From NCBI RefSeq assembly GCF_988242995.1, contig NZ_OZ547043.1: a stretch of 64,000 nucleotides of DNA; one strand, given 5' to 3'. Of the stretch, positions 2,790 through 49,434 are shown one piece after another; within the stretch, counting starts at the first letter, position 1, and each line of letters starts with the position of its first letter. Under the pieces are notes generated by a model, which ran no database searches, had not been told where the DNA came from, and saw only the letters and a list, made by a program, of their open reading frames with translations. The position numbers were made by a program, and so were the translations under genes.

Positions 2790-4187
2790 ATGAAGCGACT
2801 TAAAAATGAACTCAATGCGCTGGTGAATCGGGGTGTCGACAGACATCTGCGCCTCGCTGTAACCGGACTTAGCCGTAGCGGCAAAACAGCGTTTATCACC
2901 GCGATGGTTAATCAGTTGCTCAATATTCATGCCGGAGCACGTTTGCCGCTTTTAAGTGCGGTGCGTGAAGAGCGCCTGCTGGGCGTAAAACGCATTCCCC
3001 AGCGTGACTTTGGCATTCCGCGCTTCACCTATGATGAAGGACTGGCGCAGTTATATGGCGATCCTCCTGCCTGGCCGACGCCAACGCGCGGCGTCAGTGA
3101 AATCCGCCTGGCGCTACGTTTTAAATCGAACGATTCGCTGCTACGCCACTTCAAGGACACCTCCACGCTGTATCTGGAGATTGTGGATTATCCCGGCGAA
3201 TGGCTGCTCGATCTGCCGATGTTGGCGCAGGACTATTTAAGCTGGTCGCGCCAGATGACGGGCTTACTTAATGGTCAGCGCGGCGAATGGTCGGGGAAAT
3301 GGCGAATGATGTGCGAAGGGCTGGACCCGCTAGCGCCTGCCGACGAAAACCGGCTGGCAGACATTGCCGCTGCGTGGACCGATTATCTCCACCACTGTAA
3401 ACAGCAGGGGCTGCACTTTATTCAGCCAGGGCGCTTTGTCTTGCCGGGAGATATGGCAGGTGCGCCCGCGCTGCAATTCTTCCCGTGGCCGGATATCGAT
3501 GCCTGGGGCGAGTCCAAACTGGCGCAGGCCGATAAGCATACCAATGCCGGAATGCTGCGCGAGCGGTTTAATTATTACTGCGAGAAAGTGGTGAAGGGGT
3601 TCTATAAGAATCATTTTCTGCGCTTTGACCGCCAGATTGTGCTGGTGGATTGCCTGCAGCCTCTCAACAGTGGGCCACAGGCATTTAATGATATGCGTCT
3701 GGCGCTGACGCAGCTGATGCAAAGTTTCCACTACGGGCAGCGAACCCTGTTCCGGCGTTTGTTTTCGCCGGTTATCGATAAGCTATTGTTTGCTGCCACT
3801 AAAGCAGACCATGTGACCATCGATCAGCACGCCAATATGGTTTCATTACTGCAACAACTAATTCAGGATGCCTGGCAAAATGCGGCGTTCGAAGGGATCA
3901 GCATGGATTGCCTGGGGCTGGCGTCTGTTCAGGCGACCACCAGCGGAATTATTGATGTTAACGGTGAGAAAATCCCGGCGCTGCGCGGTAATCGACTCAG
4001 CGATGGCGCACCGCTCACTGTTTATCCTGGCGAAGTTCCCGCACGTTTGCCAGGTCAGGCGTTCTGGGATAAGCAAGGCTTCCAGTTTGAGGCGTTTCGT
4101 CCGCAGGTGATGGATGTCGACAAACCGCTGCCGCATATTCGTCTTGATGCTGCGCTGGAATTTTTAATAGGAGATAAATTGCGATGA
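2790..4187 (+). CDS. ycjX: YcjX, P-loop NTPase of unknown role
   Basis: 465 aa with Walker A GLSRSGKT. Recognised as the YcjX family. Stop overlaps the ycjF start. Confidence 0.93.
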
Positions 4188-41601: not shown

Positions 41602-42363
41602 ATGGAGACTGTTTTTGACGCACTGAAAGCAATGGGAAAAGCCACATCCATAGAACTTGCTGCGCGACTTGATATCAGCCGTGAAGAAGTGCTGAACGAA
41701 CTATGGGAACTGAAAAAGGCTGGTTTCGTTGATAAAAGCGCGTACACCTGGCGTGTGGCTGATAACAACGTTCAGCAGGAACAGCCAGCGCCGGCAGAAC
41801 TGCCGGAAGAAACTACCACGGCAACAGTCGCGAAAATTTCAGAGAGCGATTTAACTGCGACGATTGAACAACGTGGTCCACTAACTGCGGATGAACTGGC
41901 TACGTTGTTCGGTACCACATCCCGCAAAGTGGCTTCAACGCTGGCAATGGCAATCAGCAAAGCTCGTCTGATTCGCGTTAATCAGAACGGTAAATTTCGT
42001 TACTGCATGCCGGGCGGTAATTTACCAGCAGAGCCGAAAGCTGCATCGGTAGCGGAAACAGATGGTAAAGCCTTTCCTCAGCTAGCCGGTGTTGCGTTAC
42101 CAGTACAGGAAGCTGCAACACAGGAAGATATTAAAACAGAAACTGTGGCGGACATTGTGCAGTCGTTGCCATCGTTTACTGAAACGCAAGCGGATAACCT
42201 GATTTTACCATCGCTGCATATGGCAAACCGTGAACTGCGTCGGGCGAAAAATCATGTCCAGAAGTGGGAGCGAGTCTGCGCCGCGCTGCGGGAGCTGAAC
42301 AAGCACCGGGATATTGTTCGACAGATTTTCGATTCCTCCAGTCGTATTGTGTCGGAAAAGTGA
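41602..42363 (+). CDS. ydaW: YdaW-like protein, apparently full length (253 aa)
   Basis: ATG at 41602 gives [43 protein letters not shown]... (winged-helix N-terminus). I recall K-12 ydaW as a truncated pseudogene. Confidence 0.8.
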
Positions 42364-42378
42364 TTGCCGGAGGCACCT

Positions 42379-42810
42379 ATGGCAAAAGTATTTACACCAG
42401 AAGAGCGGGAAAAAATTAAAGGGCAGGTTGTTGAACTTGTACGTCTGAGCGGTCGCGAGACGTTACGGGCTCTGGAGGCTAAAACCGGTGCATCAAGGTA
42501 TTACATAAGCACTCTCGCCAGAGAACTGGTCGCCAGTGGTGATGTTTACAATTCAGGCTACGGATTATTCCCGTCTGAGCAGGCTCGTAAGGACTGGCAA
42601 AACGCCCGCAAAAAACTATCCAGGGCAAAGGTGAAAAAAACGGTTGTGGTTGATCCTGACCTTATCTGGTCATTACCAGACGGAGAAATACGCCGCTACG
42701 ACAGGCGCCTGAATATAATCTGTCGCGAGTGCCGGAAAAGCGAAGTTATGCAGCGTGTACTGGCATTTTACCAGAGTAATTTCAGGAGGTTGTCTGGTGA
42801 GCACGATTAA
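42379..42810 (+). CDS. Hypothetical phage protein (143 aa; HTH-like N-terminus, CRECRKS near C-terminus)
   Basis: GGAGGCACCT precedes the ATG at 42379. Translation MAKVFTPEEREKIKGQVVELVRLSGRETLRALEAKTGASRYYISTLAREL.... Last gene of the rightward block before the antisense cassette. Confidence 0.7.
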   Translation: MAKVFTPEEREKIKGQVVELVRLSGRETLRALEAKTGASRYYISTLARELVASGDVYNSGYGLFPSEQARKDWQNARKKLSRAKVKKTVVVDPDLIWSLPDGEIRRYDRRLNIICRECRKSEVMQRVLAFYQSNFRRLSGEHD

Positions 42811-42835
42811 CTACTAGGGGGGATAACAATAAAAT

Positions 42836-42855
42836 AAAGCCTCCTAGGAGGCTTT
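42836..42855. terminator. Perfect 20-nt palindrome; bidirectional terminator at the cassette boundary
   Basis: AAAGCCTCCTAGGAGGCTTT has an 8-bp stem and a CTAG loop. It overlaps the MTase stop codon (TAG). A T-rich tract follows on the minus strand. Confidence 0.7.
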
Positions 42856-43884
42856 GATTATATTAAGCAAATGTTTTCCAATCGTTTCAGACATCTTCGG
42901 AGGGACCGCATTTCCTATTTGACGAGCCCGAGATTGCAAAGAACCAATAAATTTATAATCCAAAGGAAATGTTTGTAGACACGCTGCTTCACGAACCGAT
43001 ATTGCTCGATTTTGTGTTGGATGTCCAAAACGTCCATTTGAATAGCTAATACAACGAGTTGTTAGTCCGCTGGCTGGTTTGTCCCAACTCAAACGTCCAT
43101 ATACGTCTGTATGCCCTTTATGGTTACGATGGCATTCTAAAATCAATTCATCTGGCCAAAATTCTCGACTTCCACCTTCAGGAGTGCATTTTATTCTACG
43201 TAAATTAAGCTCTGATAAGCGTGCAGCTTCATGATCAGGAATACTATTATGCTTTTCTCCTGCTTCTATCTTCGGTAAATTAGCGATCCAGTCCTTTACT
43301 GTTGAATAGGGAGTATTTCCAACCCCATGTGTAGGAGAAGGCAATGCGACATAAAAATCCTTGGATGCAATGAGCACTAATCTTTCTCGCGTCTGTGGTA
43401 CACCGTACCACGCAGCTGGCATTACTTTATAATCTACACTATATCCCTTTGATGAAAGCATTTCTAAAAACATCATGAATGTTCCTTCATTTTTGTTAAA
43501 CTTTTGCATTCCTGGCACGTTTTCAACAAAAATAAAATCAGGCATATAATGCTCTACAAAGCGACTGAATTCCTTTAATAGATCTAATCGTGGATCATCA
43601 TTTTTCTTATTTGAGTTTTGCTTAGAGTACGGTTGACAAGGCGCACATCCTGAAAAAAGAATGTAATCATTACGATGTTTTTTTACTAACTTGTTTATGG
43701 CATTGTTGTCGATTAACCTAATGTCCGAGTTAATAAAAGCAGCCTGCGGGAAATTTGCACGAAATGAACTGGCTGCATCAACGTCGAAATCGAGGCCAAA
43801 AACAATATCCATTCCAGCTTGATGGAAACCTTGGCTGGTTCCACCACAACCGGAAAAGAAGTCAAACACTTTGATTTTTTTCAT
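42844..43884 (-). CDS. DNA (cytosine-5) methyltransferase
   Basis: All canonical C5-MTase motifs occur in order: I FDFFSGCGG, IV GCAPCQPYS, VI FVENVPG, VIII QTRERLVLIA, IX REAACLQTFP, X GNAVPP. The best start is ATG 43884 with GAGGG upstream. The track ORF uses GTG 43908. Confidence 0.9.
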   Translation of the reverse strand: MKKIKVFDFFSGCGGTSQGFHQAGMDIVFGLDFDVDAASSFRANFPQAAFINSDIRLIDNNAINKLVKKHRNDYILFSGCAPCQPYSKQNSNKKNDDPRLDLLKEFSRFVEHYMPDFIFVENVPGMQKFNKNEGTFMMFLEMLSSKGYSVDYKVMPAAWYGVPQTRERLVLIASKDFYVALPSPTHGVGNTPYSTVKDWIANLPKIEAGEKHNSIPDHEAARLSELNLRRIKCTPEGGSREFWPDELILECHRNHKGHTDVYGRLSWDKPASGLTTRCISYSNGRFGHPTQNRAISVREAACLQTFPLDYKFIGSLQSRARQIGNAVPPKMSETIGKHLLNIIKAS

Positions 43885-43907
43885 TTTTCCCTCTGCATCC
43901 AGAATCA

Positions 43908-45737
43908 CTACCTAATGATACCACGGTCAAGAGCCTGAGTAATTATTTTTCTTATTTTTATAAATTCAGGCAATTCATTTTTAAGTCTTGCGGTCATCAT
44001 TTGTTGGAGGCAAAAAATTTCCTCTGCATTTACTTCTTCTTTATCATACAGGTGTTGCGCTAATAATCTTATTTGATTCTTATACAGTTCTGGATCATTA
44101 GAACTCCAGGTCTGTGAATCAATTATTTCTTTTTCACTTGGCGTAATTGCCTTTTCAATGAGTAATTGTTCGGGAGTATCAAATGGTAAATACTTCACTT
44201 TATTGAATGCATACTCAAGCACTTGCCTTTTGAGTCTATTAGATTCTTGTTCATTTTTTTTGCCATTACTACCACTGGCATTGATAATTAACTCGCAACC
44301 ATAATATTTGCACATTGTATTAACTAAATCAGCATCAGCAATTTCACTAATTCTTACTGGTTTTATTTTTTTGTTTTTATCACCATCAAGTAAAAACAAA
44401 ATATCATTGCGTTCTACCACAGCGTAACTGGGAAGATGCTTGCTTAAAATGGTCTCCGAACCACCTGGTATATAACTTACACTAAATGATAAGCTTAATC
44501 TTTCATCATTTTTAATCGCTTTATCTATAATTGCTTTAGCTAATTTATCTTCTACAATTATTGTTTTCTTGTTAATATCATGCCCTAGCTCTATAAAAGC
44601 TTCATCCGGTGCTATATTTTGAACTATTTTAGCTGTTTCACTCTCTTCATCAAAAACAAATAATTTAATGGCATCTTTGGGAAGAGTGTTCACAATAACA
44701 GGAGAATGGGTTGATATTACCACTTGATGTTTTTTCTGCTCAACAATAGAGTACAGAACATCCATCATCCTTTTTTGTGCACCAGGGTGAAGTGAAACTT
44801 CTGGTTCGTCAAGAAGAATTAATGAATTAGGTTTGGCCGAATAAATATTGAGTATTAGTGAAACTATTGCAAATTCACCACTTCCAGCAAACGCTTCTGT
44901 ATAGTTCAACTTATCAGTTGAAAGTAAAGCGGTTCCTCCTCTGGTTCCAAATAACCGATGCTCAAGAAATTTAATGACTTTATATTTTTTCCCTAATATA
45001 AATGAGACGTGCTCAACTAGTTCTGGCGCCAAGGTTATATTTTTAACAATGGTTTCCGCCCCCCAGAGTCTTAAATTACTTAGCTTTTCATCAAAAGCTT
45101 TCTTTATATATTTAGATTTGCTTCTGATATAGTCTTGCTTTGTAATTAATACACCACTCTTCTTCTTTCTTAATTTAAAATCAGAGTGATACATACATCT
45201 ATCAAATGCACTTATTTCCGATCTGAAATCTAGGAAAACCAATCCCTTCTTGATTTTTTTCCATCTGGTTGCATTACTATTAGCACCCAGATCATCCGAA
45301 ATACTCTCCATGTTATCACCAACAGATGGTCGACTTGTTTCCCAATAATCGATTGTTTTCTTGGTAGCATTGATACGTGCTTGGAGTATTTCAACTAAAC
45401 GGCCATCAGCATTTTTATATCCATATATATATCTAGGTTTAAGAGAACTGCCATCAGCAAGTTTTAGGTCAGGAAACTCATCTGTTTCAGTTGTGAACCA
45501 ATAACGAGTTATATTTTTACCATGTGGGCAACCAAATAGCGCTTTGATAACAGAACTTTTATTAGTTCCATTTTTTCCTACTAAAGCCGTTATAGGGAAC
45601 TGAAAATCGATCCTTGCATTCTGCTCTATATTTTTAAAGTATGGAAAACGGATATGTTGTATGAATGGTTCAAATTCACCGTTTTTTAACGCGCACTGGA
45701 GTGTTCGAATTTTGCTCTTGTATGCGGAAGTGCTCAT
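43908..45737 (-). CDS. OLD-like ABC-type ATPase with C-terminal Toprim/DUF4435-like region (609 aa)
   Basis: Walker A-like VGKNGTNKSS (aa 53-62), SGE signature (286-288), Walker B LILLDEPE then SLHP (306-318), H-loop STHSP (342-346), then IIVED (393-397) and LLDGD (449-453). Very AT-rich. Confidence 0.8.
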   Translation of the reverse strand: MSTSAYKSKIRTLQCALKNGEFEPFIQHIRFPYFKNIEQNARIDFQFPITALVGKNGTNKSSVIKALFGCPHGKNITRYWFTTETDEFPDLKLADGSSLKPRYIYGYKNADGRLVEILQARINATKKTIDYWETSRPSVGDNMESISDDLGANSNATRWKKIKKGLVFLDFRSEISAFDRCMYHSDFKLRKKKSGVLITKQDYIRSKSKYIKKAFDEKLSNLRLWGAETIVKNITLAPELVEHVSFILGKKYKVIKFLEHRLFGTRGGTALLSTDKLNYTEAFAGSGEFAIVSLILNIYSAKPNSLILLDEPEVSLHPGAQKRMMDVLYSIVEQKKHQVVISTHSPVIVNTLPKDAIKLFVFDEESETAKIVQNIAPDEAFIELGHDINKKTIIVEDKLAKAIIDKAIKNDERLSLSFSVSYIPGGSETILSKHLPSYAVVERNDILFLLDGDKNKKIKPVRISEIADADLVNTMCKYYGCELIINASGSNGKKNEQESNRLKRQVLEYAFNKVKYLPFDTPEQLLIEKAITPSEKEIIDSQTWSSNDPELYKNQIRLLAQHLYDKEEVNAEEIFCLQQMMTARLKNELPEFIKIRKIITQALDRGIIR

Positions 45738-45885
45738 TGTTTACTAAAGTCCATAATAGGCTATTAACAGGTTGAGGATGACATGATAACGATTTTTAAT
45801 GCAGATAAAAGAGGTTTGTTGGTTAGCACACAACAGAAAAAGTGACCTTACCGCTTGAACGAAAGGTAAGGGTAAGTAGGCTGTG

Positions 45886-46038
45886 ATGCAGCAAAAGACG
45901 ATGTTAATCGCCCTGATTGTCATCTGTATTACCGTCGTTGTGATGGCACTGGTAACAAGGAAAGACTTCTGCGAGGTACAAATCCGAACCGGTCAGACGG
46001 AGGTCGCTGTCTTCACAGCTTACGAACCTGAGGAGTGA
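45886..46038 (+). CDS. hok: Hok/Gef-family type I toxin (50 aa)
   Basis: Hand translation gives MQQKTMLIALIVICITVVVMALVTRKDFCEVQIRTGQTEVAVFTAYEPEE, closely resembling my recollection of HokD/RelF. A downstream fbi-type hairpin GGCGAGGGA-GAAA-TCCCTCGCC lies at 46046-46067. Below the ORF-track cut-off. Confidence 0.88.
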   Translation: MQQKTMLIALIVICITVVVMALVTRKDFCEVQIRTGQTEVAVFTAYEPEE

Positions 46039-46144
46039 GAGACCAGGCGAGGGAGAAATCCCTCGCCACCTCTGATGAGTCAGGCATCCTCAACGCACCC
46101 GCACTTAACCAACTTTGGCGGGTATATTTTATCTGTGAATATTT

Positions 46145-46231
46145 TTATAAAAATAATGCCCACGCACAGCATAAAACAAAAAGTATTACAGATAAAAAAG
46201 GAACGTAATGTGCAGATTTGTTGTTTTCCAT
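46145..46231 (-). CDS. Possible 28-aa hydrophobic peptide
   Basis: AAGGTGAG lies 6 nt before the ATG (46231). Translation MENNKSAHYVPFLSVILFVLCCAWALFL has a polar head and one TM-length hydrophobic tail. No recognised homology. Confidence 0.3.
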   Translation of the reverse strand: MENNKSAHYVPFLSVILFVLCCAWALFL

Positions 46232-46503
46232 ATTTACTCACCTTAATATGATTAACCCTAATAGGGTTGTTATTTCAGCGGTTTTCAAATGAGATATTAT
46301 GGTGATCTGGCAGATTTGCATAACATTAAAATTTAATTTGTTTAACCGCTTTTAATAATAAGCGTTGTTTGTATCCCAGCAATCTGTTGTTTGGTTTTTA
46401 TTCCATTAAGGTGGGGCTTTACACTGGAGCCAGTTTATTTATACTTCATACGTCAGCCTGAACAACTGGCATCTGCTGCGCTGCGCCATCGAGAGATTAA
46501 GAA

Positions 46504-47103
46504 ATGGCGCATATACAACTGGTCAAACAAACCTCTTCCGGATTACTTCTCCCGGCGACGCCGGAGAGTTGTGATTTTCTGCATCAAATCAAAATAGGCG
46601 AGTGGATACACGCAGACTTTAAGCGTGTGCGTAACTACGCATTCCACAAGCGTTTTTTCAAACTCCTGCAACTGGGATTCGATTACTGGACTCCGGTCGG
46701 TGGGGCGATCACGCCTCGCGAACGAGAACAGCTGTCTGGTTTCGTTGATTACCTGTGCGAATCAGTTGGTCGGGAACACACGCCAGCCCTGAGTGATGCC
46801 GCAGAGCAATATCTGAATACAGTTGCGACACGCAGAACCCGGGATACGGCATTGCTAAAGTCGTTTGAGGCTTTTCGCGAGTGGGTAACCATTCAGGCTG
46901 GATTTTACACCGAACATTTTTATCCGGACGGTAGCCGCGGGCGTCGGGCAAAATCTATCGCTTTTGCGAATATGGACGAAACCGAGTTTCAGCAGGTTTA
47001 TAAATCTGTTCTGAATGTGCTGTGGAACTGGATTCTGTTCCGTAAATTTTCCTCTCCGGAACAAGTCGAAAATGTGGCCGCGCAGCTGCTGGAGTTTGCG
47101 TAA
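46504..47103 (+). CDS. nin-region phage protein (DUF1367-like, YbcN-position)
   Basis: 199 aa, MAHIQLVKQTSSGLLLPATPESCDFLHQIKIGEWIHADFKRVRNYAFHKRFF.... ATGG overlap with the next gene. Assigned by resemblance to lambdoid nin-region proteins. Confidence 0.7.
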   Translation: MAHIQLVKQTSSGLLLPATPESCDFLHQIKIGEWIHADFKRVRNYAFHKRFFKLLQLGFDYWTPVGGAITPREREQLSGFVDYLCESVGREHTPALSDAAEQYLNTVATRRTRDTALLKSFEAFREWVTIQAGFYTEHFYPDGSRGRRAKSIAFANMDETEFQQVYKSVLNVLWNWILFRKFSSPEQVENVAAQLLEFA

Positions 47104-47393
47104 TGGTGGATTTACGTAAAGCGGCGCGGGGGCAGATGTGCACCGTCAGAATTCCTGGCTACTGCAATCACAATCCCGAAACATCTGTGCTGGCGCATTA
47201 CAGGCTGGCGGGGACGTGCGGAACAGCGACAAAACCACACGATATGCAGGCAGCGATTGCCTGTAGCTCATGCCACGATTTAATCGACGGGCGGGTAAAA
47301 ACCAGCGATTACACCAAAGAAGAATTACGCCTGATGCATGCAGAAGGTGTTTTTCGCACACAAGAAATCTGGAGAAAGGAAGGTTATTTATGA
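47103..47393 (+). CDS. YbcO-like (DUF1364) putative nuclease
   Basis: 96 aa, MVDLRKAARGQMCTVRIPGYCNHNPETSVLAHYRLAG...ACSSCHDLIDGR. Resembles DLP12 YbcO as I recall it (Cys/His metal site). Confidence 0.8.
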   Translation: MVDLRKAARGQMCTVRIPGYCNHNPETSVLAHYRLAGTCGTATKPHDMQAAIACSSCHDLIDGRVKTSDYTKEELRLMHAEGVFRTQEIWRKEGYL

Positions 47394-47932
47394 TTTACCC
47401 AACAAATACAGGCAAAAGCGGGGAACACCTTCGTCTCACCACGCTGGAAAGTGTCTGGATTCAGGGAAAACTGCGCATGTGGGGGCGCTGGTCGTATATT
47501 GGCGGCGGTAAGACGGGAAATATGTTTAACCAGTTGCTGGCATCCAAAAAATTGACGAAAACAGCCGTCAATGAAGCCCTGCGCAGGATGAAAAAAGCGG
47601 GAATAGAGAAACCTGAGCTGGAAGCGTTTTTGCGAGAGATGATCAATGGCAAGCAAAAGACCTGGCTGGCGCATTGTACTGATGCAGAGGCGTTATGTAT
47701 TGATAGAGTCATAAGTGAGGTGCTGGCAGAGCATCCTGGATTGATTAGTGTCCTCCGGCAACGGTATGAAGGACGGGGGATGACTAAGCGCAAAATGGCT
47801 GAATTGCTAAATGATGCACATCCTGAGTGGTGTTTTAGCACATGCGAAAAGCGAATTGCTAATTGGTTGGCTGTTGCTGAGTATGCCCTATATATTCCCA
47901 TGCGAGAATTATTTGCTCAAAAAATAGCTTGA
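47390..47932 (+). CDS. Late-gene antiterminator Q
   Basis: ATGA overlap with the previous stop. 180 aa, MIYPTNTGKSGEHLRLTTLESVWIQGKLRMWGRWSYIGGGKTGNMFNQLL.... Positioned before a tR'-like terminator and the lysis genes. The track ORF has a spurious 40-codon extension. Confidence 0.8.
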   Translation: MIYPTNTGKSGEHLRLTTLESVWIQGKLRMWGRWSYIGGGKTGNMFNQLLASKKLTKTAVNEALRRMKKAGIEKPELEAFLREMINGKQKTWLAHCTDAEALCIDRVISEVLAEHPGLISVLRQRYEGRGMTKRKMAELLNDAHPEWCFSTCEKRIANWLAVAEYALYIPMRELFAQKIA

Positions 47933-48015
47933 TTTTTTACGCATAAACTGCTTCAATTCCGGTATGCTTCGCAAAGCTGTATCGCGAGGCGAACCAAGCG
48001 CATGAACTTTACCAG

Positions 48016-48040
48016 AACCCGCCATTGAGCGGGTTTTGTT
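48016..48040 (+). terminator. tR'-like intrinsic terminator downstream of Q
   Basis: AACCCGC-CATTGA-GCGGGTT followed by TTGTT. The IS200 copy-2 left end starts at or within its T-tract. Confidence 0.65.
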
Positions 48041-48751
48041 GTGCACAGAAAACCCCCAGCTAGGCTGGGGGTTCCGGAAAGCTTTCAGCTTTGAGCCAGT
48101 TATTAAAACCCCTTTTGATTTGTTAAAACACTTTGCGGTCTGGCAACTGCAAGTGTCAAACAAGAAATCAAAAGGGGGTCCCAATGGGGAACGAAAAGAG
48201 CTTAGCGCACACCCGATGGAACTGTAAATATCACATAGTTTTTGCGCCAAAATACCGAAGACAGGTGTTCTACAGAGAGAAGCGTAGAGCAATAGGCAGT
48301 ATTTTGAGAAAGCTGTGTGAGTGGAAAAGCGTACGGATTCTGGAAGCTGAATGCTGTGCAGATTATATCCATATGCTTGTGGAGATCCCGCCCAAAATGA
48401 GCGTATCCGGCTTTATGGGATATCTGAAAGGGAAAAGCAGTCTGATGCTTTACGAGCAGTTTGGTGATTTGAAATTCAAATACAGGAACAGGGAGTTCTG
48501 GTGCAGAGGGTACTACGTCGATACAGTGGGTAAGAACACGGCGAAGATACAGGATTACATAAAGCACCAGCTTGAAGAGGATAAAATGGGAGAGCAGTTA
48601 TCGATTCCCTATCCGGGCAGCCCGTTTACGGGCCGTAAGTAACGAAGTTGGATGCAAATGTCAGATCGTGTGCGCCTGTTAGGGCGCGGCTGGTAAGAGA
48701 GCCTTATAGGCGCATTTGAAAAACCTCCGGCTATGCCGGAGGATATTTATT
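48039..48751 (+). mobile_element. IS200-type insertion sequence, copy 2
   Basis: Identical block to 35625-36337, in the same orientation. Inserted between the Q/tR' region and the lysis region. Confidence 0.93.
48184..48642 (+). CDS. tnpA: IS200 Y1 transposase TnpA (copy 2)
   Basis: Same 152-aa product as copy 1. Confidence 0.93.
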   Translation: MGNEKSLAHTRWNCKYHIVFAPKYRRQVFYREKRRAIGSILRKLCEWKSVRILEAECCADYIHMLVEIPPKMSVSGFMGYLKGKSSLMLYEQFGDLKFKYRNREFWCRGYYVDTVGKNTAKIQDYIKHQLEEDKMGEQLSIPYPGSPFTGRK

Positions 48752-48864
48752 GTTTCTGGTACTGGCGAACCTGATGTTTCATTTCTGGAGCGCGATTCCT
48801 GGCGGAATACCTAGAATCGAGACATTCTGGTAAAATTGTTTTCAGTACAGGATGTGGAGGTGAG

Positions 48865-49434
48865 ATGAGAGAACTACCTAAAGATTATTTTTTAGGAGTA
48901 GATGATGAGCTCGTCGATTATCTTGAAAAACAAGGGGAAGAGACGATACGAGAGATTCATCTTTCTAACAAAACCAATGTTGAGAATGGATACAAACTTC
49001 TGAACATTCAGATTGTTGGAATTGGTTCATCTTTTTTATTGCTGACACAGAAAACTAATTTCGATTTTCTCACCGCCGGAATTACCACATTTACATTACT
49101 ATGGACATGGTGCGCCATTTACTTGGTATGTACTGGTTTATCTGTGAAGGTTAGGGGCCTGATCAATGCCCCTCCTGATCATCTATATCATGAAAAATAT
49201 AAGGATATGGAGCCCTCGAGCTTTAAAATATTCGCTGATGCAGGATATTTAGGACCTGATAAGTTATTGCCGCTTATACGAAGGTATCGCCTTGTTGACT
49301 TGAGTGATACAGCAAGAGAGTTACTGTTGGAAAATGAGAAAATCCGCACGAGTCTCGATAAAGCAAGGATGTATACCATCCTTGCTCCGGTAGCGGCGAT
49401 GTTTATCTCGGCTGTTTTTTTATATGTTCAATGA
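48865..49434 (+). CDS. Hypothetical membrane protein (189 aa), a moron between Q and the holin
   Basis: GGAGGTGAG lies before the ATG. AT-rich. Hydrophobic segments are IVGIGSSFLLLT, GITTFTLLWTWCAIYLVCTGL and ILAPVAAMFISAVFLYV. No recognised family. Confidence 0.65.
   Translation: MRELPKDYFLGVDDELVDYLEKQGEETIREIHLSNKTNVENGYKLLNIQIVGIGSSFLLLTQKTNFDFLTAGITTFTLLWTWCAIYLVCTGLSVKVRGLINAPPDHLYHEKYKDMEPSSFKIFADAGYLGPDKLLPLIRRYRLVDLSDTARELLLENEKIRTSLDKARMYTILAPVAAMFISAVFLYVQ

What the first reader, a model, noticed from the sequence alone, without database searches (positions are those of the whole stretch)
42844..45737. OLD-like ATPase/Toprim protein coupled to a C5-cytosine methyltransferase: candidate undescribed R-M-like or abortive defence pair
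Seen in the sequence: two co-directional minus-strand genes lie about 23 nt apart (ATPase stop TAG at 43908-43910; MTase ATG at 43884 with GAGGG). Both are conspicuously AT-rich compared with the flanking ydaW-like and nin-like genes. They are transcribed antisense to the PR-driven early operon and closed by a perfect 20-nt palindrome. The 609-aa product has an ABC/SMC-style ATPase head: VGKNGTNKSS, SGE, LILLDEPE-SLHP and STHSP. Its C-terminal half carries IIVED (393-397) and LLDGD (449-453), which looks like the E...DxD of Toprim/DUF4435. The second product has every C5-MTase motif (I, IV PCQ, VI ENV, VIII QxRxR, IX, X GNAVPP). Established knowledge: ABC-ATPase plus Toprim defines OLD-family nucleases, such as P2 Old and Gabija GajA, and OLD-related proteins are found beside retrons and in PARIS. 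C5 MTases normally partner a type II endonuclease or Vsr. Inference: an OLD-type ATPase-nuclease acting as the restriction or effector arm of a cytosine-5 methylation-marked system is an architecture I cannot place in any described defence family. No Vsr, controller protein or conventional REase ORF is present.
Basis: partly seen in the sequence, partly recalled or inferred. Interest (0 to 1): 0.85.

Follow-up and report, generated by a model that had tools for sequence, protein, structure and literature searches.

The report
Prophage nuclease-methylase defence gene pair
A small cassette in an E. coli prophage encodes an ATP-driven OLD-type nuclease next to a cytosine methylase; the two genes travel together across many bacterial phyla, so they probably form an undescribed restriction-modification-like anti-phage system.

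Summary
The window is a Rac-like lambdoid prophage of E. coli. A 3.05-kb AT-rich cassette (about 42802-45857, minus strand) carries a 609-aa ABC-ATPase/Toprim protein. A 346-aa C5-cytosine methyltransferase follows 23 nt downstream, and a bidirectional terminator closes the cassette. Structure prediction places the whole protein with GajA and Thermus OLD. Its C-terminal domain alone matches OLD, AriB and retron Toprim nucleases. K60, E396 and D451/D453 are invariant in 35 homologues. The closest described relatives are the single-gene defence proteins HEC-04 and IbfA.

The main new result is linkage. In 72 of 77 testable genome loci from many phyla, and in 60 of 61 testable viral contigs, a related C5-methylase sits in the same gene cluster. 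Three gene arrangements occur, and the two proteins diverge together (r = 0.71). Some loci add GHKL "R.HgiDII-like" proteins or classical restriction enzymes.

No name or paper for the pair was found, but REBASE, DefenseFinder and one key 2020 paper could not be consulted. The most likely mechanism is restriction-modification logic with a Toprim nuclease. A guardian or abortive role is the main rival. I rate it a new variant of a known kind, of moderate to high interest.

The parts
42802..45857 (-). Whole mobile cassette (terminator, MTase, ATPase-Toprim, 120-nt upstream region), inserted in the variable slot between the DUF977 (ydaW-like) gene and hokD of a Rac-like prophage
   Evidence: In other E. 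coli genomes, homology to the flanks stops at about query 491-502 and resumes at about 3558-3561 of window:42300-46500. Other genomes carry different cargo in the same slot (QueH, DUF5677, alpha/beta hydrolase). GC dips to 0.31-0.41.
43908..45737 (-). 609-aa ABC-ATPase/Toprim (OLD-like, HEC-04/IbfA-related) nuclease gene. Walker A K60 is at 45560-45558, E396 at 44552-44550 and D451/D453 at 44387-44379.
   Evidence: Pfam AAA_21, AAA_15 and SMC_N cover residues 1-350. PADLOC HEC-04 scores 1.5e-34 and ATPase-Toprim_I-B 3.8e-26. The AF2 model matches GajA and TsOLD. The catalytic residues are invariant in 35 homologues.
43911..44624 (-). C-terminal Toprim plus helical domain (residues 372-609)
43885..43907 (-). 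23-nt intergenic spacer with the Shine-Dalgarno sequence GAGGG (43893-43889); the two genes are probably co-transcribed
   Evidence: Sequence read. The same tight spacing (16-40 nt) is seen in most homologous loci.
42844..43884 (-). 346-aa C5-cytosine DNA methyltransferase of the M.HgiDII/DNMT1-like clade
   Evidence: Pfam DNA_methylase 4.9e-61 over the full length. PADLOC MTase_II 1.3e-96. The best solved relatives are DNMT1 catalytic domains, 1e-38. A 63%-identical homologue is labelled 'Modification methylase HgiDII' by its source.
42836..42855 (.). Perfect 20-nt palindrome that acts as a bidirectional intrinsic terminator. It closes the cassette and also the convergent DUF977 gene.
   Evidence: a stem of 8-9 pairs followed by a T-run on both strands.
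45738..45857 (-). Cassette-specific 120-nt region upstream of the ATPase gene; presumed promoter (not demonstrated)
   Evidence: It lies inside the cassette borders. The simple consensus scan found no strong sigma-70 match on the minus strand here.

Best explanation
This is a self-contained, horizontally mobile two-gene defence cassette that probably works by restriction-modification logic.

The C5-methyltransferase marks a conserved target sequence in the resident DNA. The partner is an OLD-type enzyme: an ABC-ATPase head that senses or engages DNA and consumes ATP, fused to a Toprim metal-dependent nuclease. It attacks DNA that lacks the mark, such as incoming phage DNA. Methylation of host and prophage DNA keeps the nuclease off self.

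Shown here: the genes, the folds, the invariant catalytic residues, the near-obligate linkage and the co-divergence of the pair.

Inferred: that the substrate is DNA, that methylation protects, and that the system defends against phage.
For: (1) Linkage. Of 80 genome loci from at least 10 phyla, 60 have a related C5-MTase directly adjacent on the same strand. Another 12 have it in the same cluster, separated only by R-M-type genes. Only 2 of the 77 testable loci lack one. On viral contigs, 60 of 61 testable loci have it adjacent. Starting from the MTase side, 3 of 3 sampled homologues have the ATPase immediately upstream. In complete E. coli genomes, both genes occur in exactly the same 31 of 5426.

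(2) Arrangement. Three arrangements occur (A>M, M>A, convergent) with linkage retained, as is typical of R-M systems.

(3) Co-divergence. Pairwise identities correlate at r = 0.71 over 6786 comparisons of 117 unique pairs. The MTase is always the more conserved partner.

(4) MTase integrity. All catalytic motifs are intact, and the target-recognition region is conserved across the family. This argues that methylation itself is required.

(5) Nuclease integrity. The OLD-type fold is predicted, and K60, E396 and D451/D453 are invariant. The homologous residues are essential for defence in HEC-04, and HEC-04 is toxic when over-expressed. That fits a nuclease that needs a self-protection mark.

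(6) Location. The cassette sits in prophage cargo slots: DUF977|hokD, Q|holin, and next to int.

(7) One possible R-loss case. E. coli EC11 has the nuclease gene split by a frameshift while the MTase is intact. This is the direction of decay expected for R-M systems, but it is a single genome.
Against: - There is no experimental evidence for cleavage, for methylation or for protection.
- The relatives HEC-04 and IbfA defend without any MTase, so this nuclease type can tell phage from host by other means.
- In the operon the nuclease gene precedes the MTase gene and no controller protein is present. That is awkward when an unconditional restriction enzyme has to establish itself in a new host.
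- In 4 loci the ATPase-Toprim sits beside a complete classical R-M pair (HpaII-like or SmaI-like). In 8 loci it sits beside GHKL 'R.HgiDII/NmeAI-like' proteins.
- In L065 it sits beside an AspBHI-like m5C-dependent enzyme, with no MTase.
- These contexts fit an accessory or guardian role at least as well as a restriction role.
- Other OLD-family Toprim effectors (AriB, and P2 Old according to a 2026 preprint) cut tRNA rather than DNA.
Confidence: 0.5

Rival explanations
1. Guardian or decoy model (PrrC-like or PARIS-like). The ATPase-Toprim protein is a latent abortive-infection effector that is held inactive by the methyltransferase, or that monitors it (or a neighbouring R-M system). It is released when a phage inhibits or hijacks methylation, for example through DNA mimics, SAM hydrolases or modified cytosines. 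It then degrades DNA or tRNA and stops the infected cell.
For: - The closest relatives work without an MTase, and IbfA has an abortive-like phenotype.
- PARIS AriA/AriB and PrrC are ABC-ATPase-based guardians of R-M.
- AriB is the second-best structural match of the C-terminal domain.
- In some loci the protein sits in operons with complete R-M pairs or with paraMORC-HEPN (Ymh) proteins. The latter were themselves proposed to be PrrC analogues.
- The nuclease-first gene order without a controller protein is harmless if the nuclease is latent.
Against: - In about 90% of loci the only partner is an MTase with no first-line restriction enzyme, so there would be nothing to guard.
- The catalytic and target-recognition parts of the MTase are strongly conserved. 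A pure bait would not need that.
- No trigger is known.
Confidence: 0.27
2. RNA-level system. The Toprim domain is a tRNA nuclease, as in AriB and P2 Old. The Dnmt-like enzyme methylates host tRNA, as Dnmt2 does, to make it resistant.
For: OLD-family Toprim effectors that cut tRNA are documented. The C5-MTase fold includes the tRNA enzyme Dnmt2, which the MTase matches weakly (5e-11).
Against: The MTase is far closer to the DNA enzymes DNMT1 (1e-38), M.HaeIII and the M.HgiDII clade, and it has a full-size target-recognition domain.
Confidence: 0.05
3. Repair or housekeeping pair. The ATPase-Toprim protein is a functional analogue of Vsr/MutL-type repair. It deals with T:G mismatches created by deamination of the m5C that the partner makes, and it is not an immune effector.
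For: C5-MTases are classically linked to Vsr. GHKL (MutL-like) proteins occur in related loci. No Vsr gene is present in the cassette.
Against: - The relatives HEC-04 and IbfA are validated anti-phage proteins.
- The cassette sits in prophage cargo slots and moves horizontally.
- Its distribution is patchy: 31 of 5426 E. coli genomes.
Confidence: 0.05
4. Two unrelated cargo genes (an orphan phage methylase and an independent HEC-04-like defence gene) that merely happen to be neighbours in this prophage.
For: Defence genes cluster in islands, and the DUF977|hokD slot takes varied cargo.
Against: Adjacency is conserved in about 130 loci across phyla, in three orientations and with co-divergence. 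The two genes share exact presence and absence across 5426 E. coli genomes.
Confidence: 0.03

Closest known systems
HEC-04 (Payne et al. 2024 preprint) and IbfA of plasmids R64/pUA1135
   Same: [quoted passage not shown]
- The motif VEDxLA...LDGDK is shared.
- The PADLOC HEC-04 profile scores 1.5e-34 for this protein, against 9e-42 for IbfA.
- hhalign of the family against IbfA gives 98.9% probability, E 3e-17.
- The Walker A lysine and the E/D/D residues are essential in HEC-04.
   Different: - HEC-04 and IbfA are about 495-520 aa and act alone. This family is about 600 aa, with a larger insert in the ATPase head and a longer C-terminal helical region.
- This family is almost always linked to a C5-MTase.
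- The profile match covers only positions 160-383 of 494 in its best stretch.
- tblastn with this protein does not find IbfA in the plasmid collection at E<=1e-10.
OLD-family nucleases: Class 1 (P2 Old, Thermus and Vibrio OLD), Class 2 (GajA of Gabija), Class 3 (retron Eco8), Class 4 (PARIS AriA/AriB)
   Same: - The overall fold and domain order are the same.
- 6p74 (Thermus OLD) is the best sequence match among solved structures, for the ATPase part.
   Different: - There is no sequence-level match to any Toprim or OLD Pfam model.
- The genomic partner is a methyltransferase, not a UvrD-like helicase, a retron or a split AriB.
- The classification papers I could read list classes 1-5, and none is linked to methylation.
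HgiDII/BbrUII-type m5C R-M systems (M.HgiDII, GTCGAC) with the GHKL-type 'R.HgiDII' or 'R.NmeAIP' proteins
   Same: - The MTase belongs to the clade whose annotated namesake is M.HgiDII.
- In 8 related loci, a GHKL protein of exactly the kinds listed as R.HgiDII, R.NmeAIP (GHKL+Ymh) or R.EcoUTORF4938P (GHKL+HK) lies between the MTase and the ATPase-Toprim gene.
   Different: - The window cassette has no GHKL gene; its only nuclease candidate is the ABC-Toprim protein.
- The link to M.HgiDII rests on a source label, not on an alignment made here.
- The recognition sequence is unknown.
PrrC/EcoprrI and PARIS (guardians of restriction-modification)
   Same: An ABC-ATPase sensor is coupled to a nuclease effector and is genetically tied to DNA-methylation machinery.
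   Different: - PrrC uses a HEPN anticodon nuclease and sits inside a complete type I system.
- PARIS is not linked to any MTase gene.
- Here the usual partner is a lone type II-like C5-MTase.

Membership tests
OLD-family nuclease (general) | N-terminal ABC-type ATPase with Walker A, signature, Walker B and H-loop motifs | tested here: met
   Pfam AAA_21, AAA_15 and SMC_N match. GKNGTNKS, GSGEF, LLDEPE and THS are invariant in 35 homologues. The fold matches GajA, TsOLD, PtuA and SMC heads.
OLD-family nuclease (general) | C-terminal Toprim domain with a catalytic Glu and a DxD motif | tested here: met
OLD-family nuclease (general) | Metal-dependent nuclease activity | not testable with these tools
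   This needs biochemistry.
OLD Class 1 (stand-alone gene) | No conserved partner gene | tested here: not met
   A C5-MTase partner is present in 72 of 77 genome loci and 60 of 61 viral loci.
Gabija (OLD Class 2) | A UvrD/PcrA-like helicase gene (gajB) immediately downstream | tested here: not met
   The downstream gene is a C5-MTase. GajA profiles match only the ATPase motifs.
Retron type I-B (OLD Class 3) | An adjacent reverse transcriptase and msr/msd ncRNA | tested here: not met
   The cassette has no RT ORF and no Rfam retron match in 42000-49000. The PADLOC ATPase-Toprim_I-B profile does match the protein itself at 3.8e-26.
PARIS (OLD Class 4) | AriA ATPase plus a separate or fused DUF4435-type AriB | tested here: inconclusive
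   AriA profiles match the ATPase part at 2.6e-22, and AriB is the second-best fold match of the C-terminal domain. No DUF4435 Pfam match was found, and the fused AriAB profile is not among the top matches.
HEC-04 / IbfA | Match to the PADLOC HEC-04 profile over the whole protein | tested here: inconclusive
   E = 1.5e-34 but in two stretches, the best covering profile positions 160-383 of 494. IbfA matches positions 16-386 in a single stretch.
HEC-04 / IbfA | A single gene is sufficient for defence, with no obligatory partner | tested here: not met
   Genomic linkage to the MTase is near-obligate. Functional sufficiency itself was not tested.
Type II restriction-modification system | A DNA methyltransferase with complete catalytic motifs | tested here: met
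   Pfam DNA_methylase matches at full length (207 bits), TIGR00675 dcm scores 166 bits, and PADLOC MTase_II scores 1.3e-96.
Type II restriction-modification system | A cognate endonuclease of a recognised REase fold (PD-(D/E)XK, HNH, GIY-YIG, PLD or half-pipe) | tested here: not met
   The only other gene in the cassette has an ABC-ATPase/Toprim fold. The list of recognised REase folds is from my own knowledge of the field.
Type II restriction-modification system | Sequence-specific cleavage that is blocked by the cognate methylation | not testable with these tools
   This needs methylome data and cleavage assays.

The most novel reading that the evidence does not exclude
This family is a previously unrecognised class of restriction-modification system. 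Its restriction enzyme would be an ATP-dependent OLD-type ABC-ATPase/Toprim nuclease, which would be the first Toprim-fold restriction endonuclease. Self is specified by a DNMT1-like m5C methyltransferase with a conserved target. The system is spread across at least ten bacterial phyla and is carried by lambdoid prophages of enterobacteria. It would amount to an 'OLD Class 6', showing how abortive OLD-type sensors were converted into self/non-self-discriminating enzymes, or the reverse.
Probability: 0.4. Interest if true: 0.8.

Novelty: new variant of a known kind. Interest (0 to 1): 0.62.

Why it matters
OLD-family ATPase-nucleases are among the commonest anti-phage effectors, but how each class is switched on is mostly unknown. 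A class whose only conserved partner is a DNA methyltransferase gives a simple, testable hypothesis for its control: the presence or absence of an m5C mark.

If that hypothesis holds, it adds a new nuclease fold and an ATP-dependent mechanism to restriction-modification. It would also link the "innate" R-M layer to the OLD/PARIS/Gabija layer.

The system sits in cargo slots of common E. coli, Klebsiella, Salmonella, Yersinia and Citrobacter prophages. It may therefore affect phage therapy host range and horizontal gene transfer. It also adds an m5C methylation pattern that PacBio-based methylome surveys tend to miss.

Tried and rejected
- Sequence-level assignment of the C-terminal domain failed. 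Pfam, PADLOC, a PDB phmmer search and a PDB profile search found nothing. Only fold comparison worked.
- I looked for the family in 50,697 sequenced phage genomes. There is no homologue at E<=1e-20, and only ATPase-motif hits at 1e-3. The DNA search found only the flank. Plasmids hold one distant full-length relative.
- Ten literature searches were run, combining OLD, Toprim, ABC ATPase, C5/cytosine methyltransferase, R-M, prophage, Pfam names and HgiDII. None returned a paper describing this pair. The search on BbrII/SalI was uninformative.
- Three sources could not be read: Krishnan et al. 2020 on ABC ATPases in conflict systems, O'Connell Motherway 2009 on BbrII, and the AFDB fold library.
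- The idea that R.HgiDII might be a homologue of the ATPase-Toprim protein was rejected. Orlowski and Bujnicki describe R.HgiDII as GHKL plus an unknown domain.
- Chance adjacency of the two genes was rejected.
- No convincing sigma-70 promoter was found upstream of the ATPase gene. No Rfam sok/hok RNA was found next to the cassette.
- Source names for both proteins are only generic.
Full report
**Where we are.** The 3.3 kb around the finding is 100% identical to chromosomes of E. coli FORC 064, and 99.9% identical to ATCC 8739 and others. In ATCC 8739 the region lies inside a Rac-like lambdoid prophage. The gene order is recET, racC, kilR, sieB, a repressor/cro-like pair, ydaT, a replication module, DUF1627 and DUF977. 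Then come the two minus-strand genes, followed by hok, DUF1367/1364/1133 and the lysis genes.

- a 609-aa ORF at 43908-45737 (-);
- a stop TAG, a 23-nt spacer with GAGGG, and the ATG of a 346-aa ORF at 43884;
- GC of 0.31-0.41 against about 0.50 in the flanks;
- a perfect 20-nt palindrome at 42836-42855 that overlaps the MTase stop codon and scores as an intrinsic terminator on both strands.

Comparison with 5426 complete E. coli genomes shows where the flanking homology ends: at about 42800 on the left, resuming at about 45858 on the right. Other prophages hold quite different cargo between DUF977 and hokD, such as QueH, DUF5677, an alpha/beta hydrolase or hypothetical genes. The pair is therefore a discrete 3.05-kb cargo cassette in a variable slot.

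**What the proteins are.**
- The second protein is a complete C5-cytosine methyltransferase. Pfam DNA_methylase matches end to end at 207 bits. TIGR00675 and PADLOC MTase_II also match, the latter at 1.3e-96.
- Its best solved relatives are the catalytic domains of mammalian DNMT1 (1e-38), ahead of M.HaeIII and M.HhaI.
- A 63%-identical Klebsiella homologue is labelled 'Modification methylase HgiDII' by its source. M.HgiDII is an m5C enzyme for GTCGAC. This is a lead to the specificity, not a test of it.
- The first protein has an ABC/SMC-type ATPase head (AAA_21, AAA_15 and SMC_N). Its C-terminal 255 residues match no Pfam model, no solved structure by sequence, and PADLOC only marginally (HEC-04, E 0.015).
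- An AlphaFold model built on 35 homologues (pLDDT 86) matches GajA and Thermus OLD over its full length.
- In the alignment of homologues down to 37% identity, these residues are invariant: K60, the signature motif, Walker B and H-loop residues, E396-D397, P424/G426, D451-G452-D453, E523 and K553.
- The OLD-type ATPase-Toprim reading is therefore supported by fold and by motifs, though not by any Toprim sequence profile.

**Closest described relatives.**
- In PADLOC-DB the best profile is HEC-04 (1.5e-34), followed by the retron I-B ATPase-Toprim (3.8e-26).
- HEC-04 is a single-gene ABC-ATPase/TOPRIM defence protein found embedded in Hma systems. It protects E. coli against several phages and needs its Walker A lysine and its E/D/D site. 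It is toxic when induced.
- IbfA of IncI1 plasmids has been identified as a HEC-04 homologue with an abortive-like phenotype.
- I extracted R64 IbfA. It matches the HEC-04 profile at 9e-42. It aligns with the present family at 98.9% hhalign probability (E 3e-17), from the signature motif through 'VEDxLA...LDGDK'.
- The window protein is thus a sister branch of HEC-04 and IbfA. It is about 90-115 residues longer, and its family-specific C-terminal domain is found in only about 450 clusters at 50% identity among 1.84 billion representatives.
- A PHROG of unknown function (phrog_3940) also matches it.

**The decisive result is linkage.** A scan of one genome per species returned 80 loci from Pseudomonadota, Actinomycetota, Bacteroidota, Bacillota, Acidobacteriota, Planctomycetota, Myxococcota, Desulfobacterota, Patescibacteria and other phyla. 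They break down as follows:
- 58 loci have a C5-MTase related to the window's (33-72% identity) on the same strand within 300 nt. In 43 it lies downstream and in 15 upstream. Two more (L029, L032) are adjacent with slightly larger gaps.
- 12 loci have the MTase in the same cluster but separated by one or two genes. In six the intervening gene is a GHKL ATPase with or without a Ymh/HEPN domain. In two it is a GHKL-histidine-kinase protein plus a receiver-domain protein. In two it is an HpaII endonuclease. In two it is a SmaI-like endonuclease.
- 3 loci have only a distant or remote MTase.
- 3 loci end at a contig edge.
- 2 loci (L043, L065) have room for an MTase but none. L065 carries an AspBHI-like m5C-dependent endonuclease instead.

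Other lines of evidence agree:
- Among 64 IMG/VR viral contigs, 54 have the MTase in tandem and 6 have it convergent. One has it 4.7 kb away, and 3 end at an edge.
- Starting from three MTase homologues (78, 67 and 63% identity), the ATPase is always immediately upstream.
- In complete E. coli genomes, each gene is found in the same 31 genomes.
- Over 117 unique pairs, the pairwise identities of the two proteins correlate (r = 0.71). The MTase is consistently the more conserved partner.
- The MTase's target-recognition region is about as conserved as its catalytic core, which suggests a shared specificity.
- A second E. coli variant (39% and 63% identity) occupies a different cargo slot, between antiterminator Q and the holin gene. 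It is indexed in more than 500 blocks of the assembly collection. Klebsiella carries a pair in the Q|holin slot as well. Enterobacter and Yersinia carry the pair next to the integrase.

**Mechanism.** Several features are what one expects of a restriction-modification module, in which the MTase is indispensable for survival in the presence of the nuclease:
- near-obligate linkage;
- permuted gene order;
- co-divergence of the two proteins;
- intact MTase chemistry with a conserved recognition region;
- a nuclease type known to be toxic when over-produced.

This is my preferred explanation (about 0.5).

Several observations keep a guardian/abortive model alive (about 0.27):
- HEC-04 and IbfA work without an MTase.
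- The nuclease gene comes first, and there is no controller protein.
- Some relatives sit beside complete classical R-M pairs.
- Other relatives sit beside paraMORC-HEPN proteins, which were themselves proposed to be PrrC-like fail-safes.
- One relative sits beside an m5C-dependent enzyme.
- OLD-family Toprim effectors such as AriB cut tRNA.

One E. coli genome (EC11) has the nuclease gene split by a frameshift while the MTase is intact. That is the expected direction of R-M decay, but it is a single case and could be a sequencing error. RNA-level, repair and chance-neighbour models are much less likely; the rival explanations set out why.

**Is it known?**
- Sources name the proteins only 'ATP-dependent nuclease', 'AAA family ATPase' and 'DNA cytosine methyltransferase'.
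- No NCBIfam model reaches its cut-off for the ATPase.
- Papers that classify OLD nucleases list classes 1-5, none of them linked to methylation.
- The HEC-04 and IbfA papers do not mention a methyltransferase partner.
- The classification of type II REases lists GHKL-type 'R.HgiDII', 'R.NmeAIP' and 'R.EcoUTORF4938P', but no ABC or Toprim enzyme appears in the text searched.
- Ten full-text searches found no description of the pair.
- The general idea that ABC ATPases regulate effectors 'together with restriction-modification systems' is, from my own recollection of its abstract, stated by Krishnan et al. 2020. I could not read that paper. REBASE and DefenseFinder were also not available.

I therefore call this a new variant of a known kind: an OLD/HEC-04-type nuclease and an R-M-type methylase in a new, conserved combination. 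I do not call it categorically new.

**Verdict.** The mechanism is unresolved between restriction-modification and guardian logic. Interest is 0.62.

Noticed in passing
window 45883-46038 (+): A Hok/Gef-family toxin gene (hokD-like) starts about 25 nt beyond the right border of the cassette and is divergent from the ATPase gene. Its mok/sok regulatory region would abut or overlap the presumed ATPase promoter region. No Rfam hok/sok match was found.
   Followed up: partly
window about 42800-45860, compared with other E. coli genomes: The slot between the DUF977 (ydaW-like) gene and hokD in lambdoid prophages is a variable cargo site. Other genomes carry QueH, a DUF5677 protein, an alpha/beta hydrolase or several hypothetical genes there.
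   Followed up: partly
L024, L070, L071, L076, L059, L073; L078, L079: In Bacteroidota, Patescibacteria and other phyla, the MTase and the ATPase-Toprim gene are separated by other genes. These are either a GHKL (paraMORC-like) ATPase with or without a Ymh/HEPN domain, or a GHKL-HEF_HK histidine-kinase protein plus a Response_reg_2 protein. They are the same architectures listed in REBASE-based work as R.HgiDII, R.NmeAIP and R.EcoUTORF4938P.
   Followed up: partly
L065 4292-5472 and 9337-10974; L043 3913-5124: These are the only two loci with no C5-MTase despite room for one. L065 has an AspBHI-like (m5C-dependent) endonuclease and a Response_reg_2 protein beside the ATPase-Toprim gene. L043 has an HNH_2 endonuclease.
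   Followed up: partly
L067 and L069 (3930-5992); L011 and L038 (3749-5806): Here the ATPase-Toprim gene lies directly downstream of a complete classical R-M pair. In L067 and L069 this is M.HpaII-like plus R.HpaII, in one tight operon. In L011 and L038 it is an MTase plus a SmaI-like REase.
   Followed up: partly
window 42847-43884 (-): The bacterial MTase matches the catalytic domain of eukaryotic DNMT1 (1e-38) much better than it matches the classical bacterial enzymes M.HaeIII (1e-20) or M.HhaI (1e-14).
   Followed up: no
phage collection against IMG/VR: The family is found on 64 predicted (pro)viral contigs, and in intact-looking lambdoid prophages. It has no homologue in 50,697 deposited phage genomes.
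   Followed up: partly
L161 2498-4328 (E. coli EC11): The ATPase-Toprim gene is split by a 1-nt indel into ORFs of 463 and 159 aa, while the MTase is intact. This could be genuine loss of the R gene or a sequencing error.
   Followed up: partly
window 48051-48174 (+) and ORF 48133-48642 (+): There is an Rfam STnc490 Hfq-binding sRNA match (144.6 bits). It is followed by an ORF whose sequence (…HTRWNCKYHIVFAPKYRR…) looks like an IS200/IS605-type TnpA from my own knowledge, which would mean an IS200 insertion in the prophage late-regulatory region.
   Followed up: no
window 48865-49434 (+): A second AT-rich patch (GC 0.38-0.41) holds a 189-aa ORF with hydrophobic stretches and no assigned function. 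It may be another cargo gene.
   Followed up: no
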